A DNA stretch of 64,000 nucleotides, from NCBI GenBank assembly GCA_038087875.1, contig CM075989.1, positions 5,580,001 through 5,644,000 on the forward strand, read 5' to 3'. The notes beneath the pieces were generated by a model. It saw only the letters and a program-made list of their open reading frames with translations, did no database searches and was not told the DNA's origin. Numbering within the stretch: position 1 is the stretch's first letter; each line of letters starts with the position of its first letter. This document shows positions 40,196 through 40,265 of the stretch, one piece after another. A program made the translations under genes and the position numbers. Origin of the DNA: Malacoraja senta (lineage: Eukaryota).

Positions 40196-40227
40196 GGTGA
40201 CGTTTCGGGTCAAGACCCTTCTTCAGA
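40196..40227 (-). ncRNA. Minimal hammerhead ribozyme motif (opposite arm)
   Basis: Minus strand U-CUGAAGA-A-GGGU(CUUG)ACCC-GAAAC-GUC-ACC; stem I weak. Confidence 0.5.
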
Positions 40228-40231
40228 AAAA

Positions 40232-40265
40232 GGTCTGAAGAAGGGTCTCGACCCGAAACGTCACC
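40232..40265 (+). ncRNA. Minimal type I hammerhead ribozyme motif
   Basis: GGU-CUGAAGA-A-GGGU(CUCG)ACCC-GAAAC-GUC-ACC: conserved core, stem II, GUC triplet, stem I GGU/ACC; loopless palindromic stem III (ACGU). Activity not shown. Confidence 0.65.

What the first reader, a model, noticed from the sequence alone, without database searches (positions are those of the whole stretch)
40196..40265. Minimal hammerhead ribozymes carried by an abundant Penelope-derived repeat, here two back-to-back
Seen: 40232-40265 reads GGU-CUGAAGA-A-GGGU(CUCG)ACCC-GAAAC-GUC-ACC. This has both hammerhead core boxes, stem II, a GUC cleavage triplet and a 3-bp stem I; an inverted second copy lies at 40196-40227. Related copies occur at 14763, 47781(-), 62147 and 62306(-), with decayed ones near 3542, 26797, 29203, 35347, 59432 and 61676. 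At 3446-4797 and 62260-62620 the repeat is contiguous with Penelope GIY-YIG coding sequence. Known: Penelope-like elements carry minimal type I hammerheads whose loopless palindromic stem III is thought to form in dimers. Inference: this genome holds a high-copy self-cleaving RNA motif, about ten copies in 64 kb. I cannot say whether it has been described for this lineage.
Basis: partly seen in the sequence, partly recalled or inferred. Interest (0 to 1): 0.75.

Follow-up and report, generated by a model that had tools for sequence, protein, structure and literature searches.

The report
Head-to-head Penelope hammerhead insertion scar
Two terminal-repeat stubs of a Penelope-like jumping gene sit head to head here, each carrying the known tiny hammerhead ribozyme motif, but the pair is predicted to fold into one long hairpin that would bury both, so this is likely ordinary, inactive transposon debris.

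Summary
The motif is at the stated coordinates and beats chance: 4 full-descriptor hits against 0.01 in shuffles. It belongs to a ~130-bp terminal repeat (40 segments in the window) lying downstream of GIY-YIG remnants; the four best homologs that carry a name are skate/ray proteins, and several homologs have the Neptune-type linker. Penelope minimal hammerheads and inverted one-tailed insertions are published.

- Family stem I is 2 bp; the minus copy keeps 1 bp.
- The two copies lie on opposite strands and cannot form a double hammerhead. Either transcript is predicted to be a ~100-bp hairpin; stem II probability is 0.000 on the + strand.
- Only 7 of 21 motif copies keep the core.
- No covariation was seen.
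- The 3446-4797 link is split by two insertions.

Copies start at the ribozyme's 5' edge (17 of 37 arms), not at the cut, so inserts likely come from uncut RNA. Cleavage is untested. The scan reported this on other genomes several times. New member of a known kind; low interest.

The parts
40232..40265 (+). Minimal type I hammerhead motif, all core positions intact, 3-bp stem I, predicted cut after 40262
40232..40360 (+). Long arm of the terminal repeat including the ~30-nt tail
40129..40227 (-). Short inverted arm (92 of 99 aligned bases identical to the long arm, 1 gap); hammerhead core at 40196-40226 with 1-bp stem I
40228..40231 (.). Four A's at the head-to-head joint, not matching the element's upstream sequence (inferred untemplated)
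40515..40604 (+). Separate short copy starting inside the core, flanked by a 16-bp target duplication
62256..62625 (-). Longest uninterrupted copy: endonuclease C-terminus (stop near 62551), ~215-nt 3' UTR, intact motif at 62305-62338
3440..4798 (-). Endonuclease remnant (4712-4798, 4226-4393), shortened UTR, decayed motif (3542-3575, G12>A) and full tail; split by two inverted-repeat insertions
57665..57774 (+). Further endonuclease C-terminal remnant, DNA match only
47781..47814 (-). Intact motif, 2-bp stem I
14654..14863 (.). Head-to-head pair joined through stem II microhomology; + arm has A9>G
10392..10516 (.). Head-to-head pair pivoting in the stem II loop; long arm continues at 11053-11094 after another insertion
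17354..17545 (.). Head-to-head pair (subfamily C) pivoting in the stem II loop, 17-bp target duplication
35266..35479 (.). Head-to-head pair, 14-bp target duplication
42129..42442 (.). Two adjacent head-to-head pairs
62073..62242 (.). Head-to-head pair (subfamily C), motif at 62147-62180 with GUU triplet, 14-bp target duplication
63826..64000 (.). Head-to-head pair pivoting in the stem II loop, cut by the window end

Best explanation
The locus is an old head-to-head insertion of two terminal-repeat stubs of a Penelope-like retrotransposon, likely of the Neptune clade; each stub carries the element's minimal hammerhead motif, and the pair is predicted to fold into one ~100-bp hairpin that would keep both motifs inactive. 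Shown by sequence: motif, inverted arms, one arm ~30 nt longer, link to GIY-YIG remnants. Inferred, by analogy with the anole element Poseidon_Ac: the element's protein nicks both target strands and starts reverse transcription at two internal RNA sites ~30-35 nt apart. That gives a short and a long arm. Both cDNAs run through the uncut ribozyme, end at its 5' edge and are joined head to head, here over four untemplated bases and elsewhere often through the ribozyme's own palindromes. In the parent element the hammerhead probably cuts after GUC only as a head-to-tail or trans dimer, or with protein help; in these dispersed stubs it is a passenger that decays, often at two CpGs in the core.
For: Motif matches the published min-HHR consensus NNN CUGANGAH G..C GAAAN NU H NNN (PMC4209133 suppl. 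Fig S3); 4 vs 0.01 hits. It lies ~215 nt downstream of an endonuclease C-terminus. The 56-aa remnant hits 72 proteins, best E 3e-15; 4 of 14 scanned show weak GIY-YIG matches below Pfam's cut-off; the alignment shows CCHH, and the linker Zn-finger in 3 homologs. One long and one short arm in 9 of 9 pairs. Target duplications above background in 7 of 17 loci. Hairpin -176.5 kcal/mol, z -28; stem I and II probability 0.000 in the + transcript, and the - transcript folds into the same hairpin. In reads of run X21, depth falls 1.6% per base across the cut site but 12.9% per base across the 5' edge; listed 3' loose ends fall in two groups ~30-35 nt apart. Published: inverted 5'-truncated copy with one-sided 30-40-bp tail (PMC8557442), palindromes at inverted junctions (PMC3846280), two RT start sites, protein-assisted hammerhead and uncut RNA as template (PMC11167929).
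Against: No clear target duplication at this locus (best 6 bp, within background). No RT of this element was identified in the window (none among the long ORFs), so the clade rests on homologs. Sister arms are first or second nearest neighbours in only 5 of 9 pairs, and not at this locus (ranks 3 and 5), so one versus two templates is unresolved. The read pile-up at 3574 is inflated by the reference copy's private base at 3575 and by subfamilies with another upstream sequence. Run X21 is not shown to be the window's species. Folding is a prediction; a nascent minus-strand or plus-strand RNA meets the antisense arm first, but transcripts starting inside the joint were not excluded.
Confidence: 0.9

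Rival explanations
1. The dispersed copies are working self-cleaving RNAs that cut host transcripts as monomers or trans dimers.
For: 4 copies in 64 kb pass the full descriptor; an isolated 34-mer folds stems I and II; about 76% and 78% of reads keep G12 and G16.2 (biased low by the reference allele); family contigs occur in a run guessed to be RNA (X15; may be DNA).
Against: With 15 downstream bases stem II probability drops to 0.001 or less in all 4 descriptor-passing copies; stem I is 2 bp in the family; the Schistosoma monomer was inactive and its dimer and trimer weak (PMC4209133); the anole ribozyme needed protein (PMC11167929); 8 of 9 Xenopus tandem dimers did not cleave (10.64898/2026.07.22.740005).
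Confidence: 0.08
2. The palindromic unit is a non-autonomous element (MITE-like or retrozyme-like) that moves as a whole.
For: At least 9 palindromic units in 64 kb, several with target duplications.
Against: Every joint differs, arms are unequal, duplications vary from about 13 to 17 bp, and no head-to-tail array of the unit was seen; retrozymes are defined as head-to-tail tandems (10.64898/2026.07.22.740005).
Confidence: 0.07
3. For the inverted arm only: it arises by fold-back self-priming of one cDNA on the stem II hairpin, not by two independently primed cDNAs.
For: 3 of 11 joints pivot in the stem II loop and one uses stem II microhomology; sister arms share private variants in 5 of 9 pairs; self-priming was proposed in PMC3846280.
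Against: At this locus the joint has no palindrome; the arms of three subfamily-A pairs differ at a site that is polymorphic across the family, which a copy of one cDNA would not give; two RT start sites explain the fixed ~30-nt asymmetry (PMC11167929).
Confidence: 0.35
4. The motif is a chance likeness to a hammerhead.
For: No Rfam hammerhead model matches at E<=1; no covariation above shuffles; all hits descend from one family, so they are one event.
Against: It fits every element of the published PLE consensus and sits where PLE hammerheads sit; subfamily C changes (GUU triplet, U-G in stems I and II) keep pairing.
Confidence: 0.02

Closest known systems
Minimal hammerheads of metazoan Penelope-like elements (Cervera and De la Pena 2014, PMC4209133; read parts 1-2 of 4 of the text and supplement parts 1-2 of 3)
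   Same: Type I, CUGANGA plus one extra base, G10.1-C11.1, GAAA, loopless CG palindrome, NUH; mostly solo truncated copies; pairs on opposite strands also noted there.
   Different: Stem II is 4 bp and family stem I 2 bp (as in D. virilis). No cartilaginous fish is among the species in Table S1 or Fig S3 as read.
Canonical EN+ PLE insertion unit, Neptune clade (Craig et al. 2021, PMC8557442; passages only)
   Same: 5' truncation, adjacent inverted copy, one-sided 30-40-bp tail, hammerhead in the pseudo-LTR, C-terminal GIY-YIG with CCHH; linker Zn-finger in homologs.
   Different: Here almost all copies are 90-135-bp stubs; RT and linker of this element were not found in the window.
Poseidon_Ac of green anole (Frangieh et al. 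2024, PMC11167929; read parts 1-2 of 4)
   Same: Two 3' ends a tail apart; uncut RNA as template.
   Different: Other clade; there the ORF starts inside stem II, which was not seen here; nothing was assayed here.
Adineta vaga Penelope inverted pLTRs with junction palindromes (PMC3846280; passages only)
   Same: Head-to-head arms, palindromes at the joint.
   Different: That paper predates the hammerhead finding; here several pivots map onto the ribozyme's stem II.
Animal non-LTR retrozymes (bioRxiv 10.64898/2026.07.22.740005; read parts 1-3 of 5)
   Same: PLE-derived type I hammerhead repeats; reported in one chondrichthyan.
   Different: Retrozymes are head-to-tail tandems; this is dispersed and inverted.

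Membership tests
PLE minimal type I hammerhead | CUGANGA, extra base, stem II with G10.1-C11.1, GAAA, palindromic 15.2-16.2, NUH | tested here: met
   against the consensus
PLE minimal type I hammerhead | Helix I of 2-5 bp | tested here: met
   3 bp at 40232, 2 bp in the family; only 1 bp in the minus copy
PLE minimal type I hammerhead | Covariation across families | tested here: inconclusive
   18 window copies: score 0.163, reached by 40 of 500 shuffles; stem II varies on one side only
PLE minimal type I hammerhead | Self-cleavage as dimer or with protein | not testable with these tools
   needs an assay; no RNA holder was listed
Double-hammerhead (dimer) arrangement | Two motifs on the same RNA strand | tested here: not met
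   the two motifs are on opposite strands and pair with each other
EN+ Penelope-like element | C-terminal GIY-YIG endonuclease with CCHH upstream of the repeat | tested here: met
   Pfam itself misses the short remnants and scores homologs below its cut-off
EN+ Penelope-like element | Inverted truncated copy and one-sided 30-40-bp tail | tested here: met
   9 of 9 pairs; arm ends 90-97 vs 125-132 nt from C3 in 8 arms measured
EN+ Penelope-like element | Target-site duplication | tested here: inconclusive
   7 of 17 loci above background; not this locus
EN+ Penelope-like element | Telomerase-like RT in the same ORF | not testable with these tools
   no such RT identified in the window; no genome held
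Neptune clade | CX2-5CxxC linker before the endonuclease | tested here: inconclusive
   present in homologs P0004, P0010, P0030; window copies are truncated downstream of it
Non-LTR retrozyme | Head-to-tail tandem units, each with a hammerhead | tested here: not met

The most novel reading that the evidence does not exclude
The ribozyme's 5' edge is a fixed end of the template rather than a random truncation point. Either transcription starts there (the edge reads TCAGTCT, an initiator-like sequence by the recalled YYANWYY consensus, about 1% per position by chance) or the folded, protein-bound ribozyme stops reverse transcriptase. The stubs would then be complete copies of the RNA's first ~130 nt, and the ribozyme's palindromes would act at DNA level as annealing sites joining two cDNAs. 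That would give the PLE hammerhead a role without cleavage, testable on very many genomic joints.
Probability: 0.25. Interest if true: 0.5.

Novelty: new member of a known kind. Interest (0 to 1): 0.2.

Why it matters
As found, it adds a very abundant family, likely from a skate or ray, to a known association: 3.4% of 12.8 million reads of one public run touch it. The function of PLE hammerheads is still open, and a family this dense gives large samples to test whether copies begin at the cut or at the ribozyme's edge and how inverted arms are joined. The locus itself looks inert; at most it is one of many long hairpins that could be double-stranded-RNA substrates if transcribed (inference).

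Tried and rejected
Whole genome not held, so no genome-wide census. Rfam gave no hammerhead match at E<=1; the locus scored only as miRNA-like hairpins and one cis-regulatory model, all below gathering. Pfam on three short remnants found nothing relevant. The word-indexed protein search found no hit; the full scan did. A family pattern gave 0 matches in metagenome contigs. No RNA holder was listed, and the RNA-guessed run X15 is contigs only: no evidence on expression, strand or ends. The downstream helix that outcompetes stem II was tested as a built-in off-switch and rejected: 53, 128 and 101 of 300 shuffles of the downstream 15 nt suppress stem II as much in the three subfamily-A copies, and two subfamily-B copies lack it. 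Co-folding two 34-mers gave intermolecular stem II and stem I pairing, not a double hammerhead. A spliced template joined at the AG before the core (cf. the D. virilis intron ending at helix I) was considered; loose ends there agree only 0.36, so no shared upstream exon is evident. Lunse et al. on dimer cleavage was not held; I know it only by title and the review passage in PMC6765202. Literature searches 'Penelope+skate+cartilaginous+repeat' (1 listing) and 'hammerhead ribozyme+Chondrichthyes' (5 listings) showed no description of this family; Repbase, Dfam, subscription papers and the bioRxiv supplements could not be seen and may hold it.

Full report
Observation. The two boxes alone are not enriched (9 vs 5.46). 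A full descriptor (boxes, stem II, paired 15.2-16.2, NUH) gives 4 hits vs a mean of 0.01 in 200 shuffles; 3 hits have stem I of 2 bp or more and only 40232 has 3 bp. These hits are copies of one family, so the enrichment shows repetition of one motif, not independent origins. Rfam lists no hammerhead at E<=1. The motif fits the published PLE consensus, including the extra base after A9 (PMC4209133 Fig S3).

The repeat. Six window queries find 42 merged segments: 40 of the ~130-bp repeat and 2 endonuclease-only pieces, in at least three subfamilies. Of 21 windows within 11 mismatches of the motif, 7 keep all core positions; 3 of the 21 are truncated or junction windows. G12>A occurs in 5 of 21 and the 15.2/16.2 CG is altered in 10 of 21; both sit in CpG dinucleotides, so methyl-CpG decay is the likely cause (inference). 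The copy at 14764 has A9>G, and 62147 has a stem II mismatch and a GUU triplet. On 18 aligned copies (the three artefact windows left out) 77.8% of cells pair and covariation is not above shuffles (40 of 500), as expected for neutrally decaying copies.

Link to Penelope. At 62256-62625(-) the motif lies ~215 nt after the stop of an endonuclease C-terminus. At 3440-4798(-) the same frame is in two pieces, split by two inverted-repeat insertions, with ~135 nt of UTR missing. The 56-aa piece hits 72 proteins (best E 3e-15, 73% identity). Four of 14 scanned have weak GIY-YIG matches below Pfam's cut-off, and the alignment shows the CCHH motif and, in three homologs, the linker Zn-finger typical of Neptune/Nematis (PMC8557442 passages). 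Five of six looked up are named, from Leucoraja, Hypanus and Rhinoraja, so the host is likely a skate or ray (inference). No RT of this element was identified in the window.

Anatomy of the locus. The short arm 40129-40227(-) and the long arm 40232-40360(+) share 92 of 99 aligned bases, so the insertion is old. Four A's lie between them. No convincing target duplication was found here (6 bp, within background), whereas 7 of 17 loci score above the 95% background. Nine of nine head-to-head pairs have one arm with the tail and one without; eight measured arms end 90-97 or 125-132 nt from C3. Of 11 joints printed, three pivot in the stem II loop, one uses stem II microhomology and one pivots at another palindrome. 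This is the published PLE insertion form (PMC8557442, PMC3846280; passages).

Can the pair work? The copies are on opposite strands, so they cannot be the two halves of a double hammerhead. Either strand folds into a ~100-bp hairpin (-176.5 kcal/mol, z -28 for the + strand), with stem I and II probabilities of 0.000 on the + strand. Even the + arm alone prefers a helix between the core and the downstream pyrimidine tract (stem II 0.002), but shuffles show this is a composition effect, not a designed switch. Published assays agree with low activity: Schistosoma monomer inactive and dimers weak (PMC4209133), anole ribozyme active only with protein and not needed for insertion (PMC11167929), 1 of 9 Xenopus tandem dimers active (bioRxiv 10.64898/2026.07.22.740005).

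Read evidence. On 3425-3625, 435,933 of 12,836,656 raw DNA reads of run X21 were laid at 80% likeness (3.4%); depth implies about one motif-bearing arm per 13 kb of that genome. X21 is a coded organism not shown to be the window's species, and only 40 of 122 difference rows and 24 of 1,125 loose-end rows were shown. At the position pairing with C1.3, 95% of covering reads have A, so family stem I is 2 bp. Depth loss is 1.1-2.9% per base through the motif (1.6% across the cut) and 12.9% per base across its 5' edge; only 4% remains 28 nt upstream of C3. 41,534 loose ends lie at 3574, none of the listed ones at the cut, and listed 3' loose ends fall at 3483/3486 and 3449/3454. Against this: the reference's private base at 3575 and subfamilies with another upstream sequence both push ends to 3574. 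The window gives a separate count: 17 of 37 arms begin between -7 and 0 of C3, 2 run on to the endonuclease, and at most 3 begin near the cut (+25 to +31), none cleanly (some subfamily-B arms may continue into upstream sequence my references lack). Inserts therefore likely derive from uncut RNA.

Mechanism. Shown: motif, position, arms, tail asymmetry, 5' boundary. Inferred: twin initiation at two internal sites, run-through of the uncut ribozyme, head-to-head joining. Fold-back of one cDNA remains a rival: sister arms rank first or second in 5 of 9 pairs but not at this locus, and three subfamily-A pairs differ at a family-polymorphic site. Why copies end at the ribozyme's edge is open. The edge reads TCAGTCT, which fits a recalled initiator consensus (6 of 18 copies match it; 1% background). 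In D. virilis, however, the start lies upstream of an intron (PMC2377424, passages) that ends at helix I (PMC4209133).

Novelty. The association and the insertion form are published. My two searches found no description of this family, but repeat databases and subscription papers were not visible, and a 2026 preprint reports hammerhead-bearing retrozymes in one chondrichthyan. Earlier agents of this scan reported the same kind on other genomes. Verdict: real, correctly named, not a population of working ribozymes on present evidence; new member of a known kind; interest 0.2.

Noticed in passing
window 22523-22598 (+): HDV-like ribozyme: Rfam CPEB3_ribozyme 37.8 bits, above gathering 35. By eye P1 has 6 bp with a G-U first pair, P2 one mismatch, P3, a GG for P1.1 and the catalytic C. 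Only match in the window; lies beside an RT-like fragment on the other strand (22047-22496). Probably the 5' end of a separate retroelement; likeness to the mammalian CPEB3 core is close. One paper search found nothing on it.
   Followed up: partly
window 3621-4140 and 4395-4711: Two non-coding insertions with terminal inverted repeats inside the Penelope remnant; they resemble PIF/Harbinger-type MITEs (recalled label). Similar ends occur near 26867 and 59400.
   Followed up: no
window 14654-14863, 35266-35479, 40129-40360: Sister arms differ at the same family-polymorphic T/A site (about 61:39 in reads), hinting at two templates per insertion.
   Followed up: partly
window 39742-40660: The locus sits among pieces of a tRNA-SINE-like repeat (families D9/D14/D20); a second stub at 40515 splits its 3' part.
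   Followed up: no
window 31543-33587 (+): Frameshifted remnant resembling an LTR-retrotransposon pol (RT, RNase H, integrase-like pieces; recognised by eye).
   Followed up: no
window 6707-7372, 11136-12104, 36909-38944, 41353-41773: LINE-type RT 3' remnants; 6707-7351 and 11460-12104 are 99% complementary.
   Followed up: no
window 53959-54140: Perfect-looking ~180-bp purine/pyrimidine palindrome scoring as several miRNA hairpin models below gathering.
   Followed up: no
P0007, P0043: The endonuclease C-terminus appears inside annotated host proteins (a GPCR named neuromedin-U receptor 1; a NYAP-domain protein), probably gene-model inclusion of the repeat.
   Followed up: no
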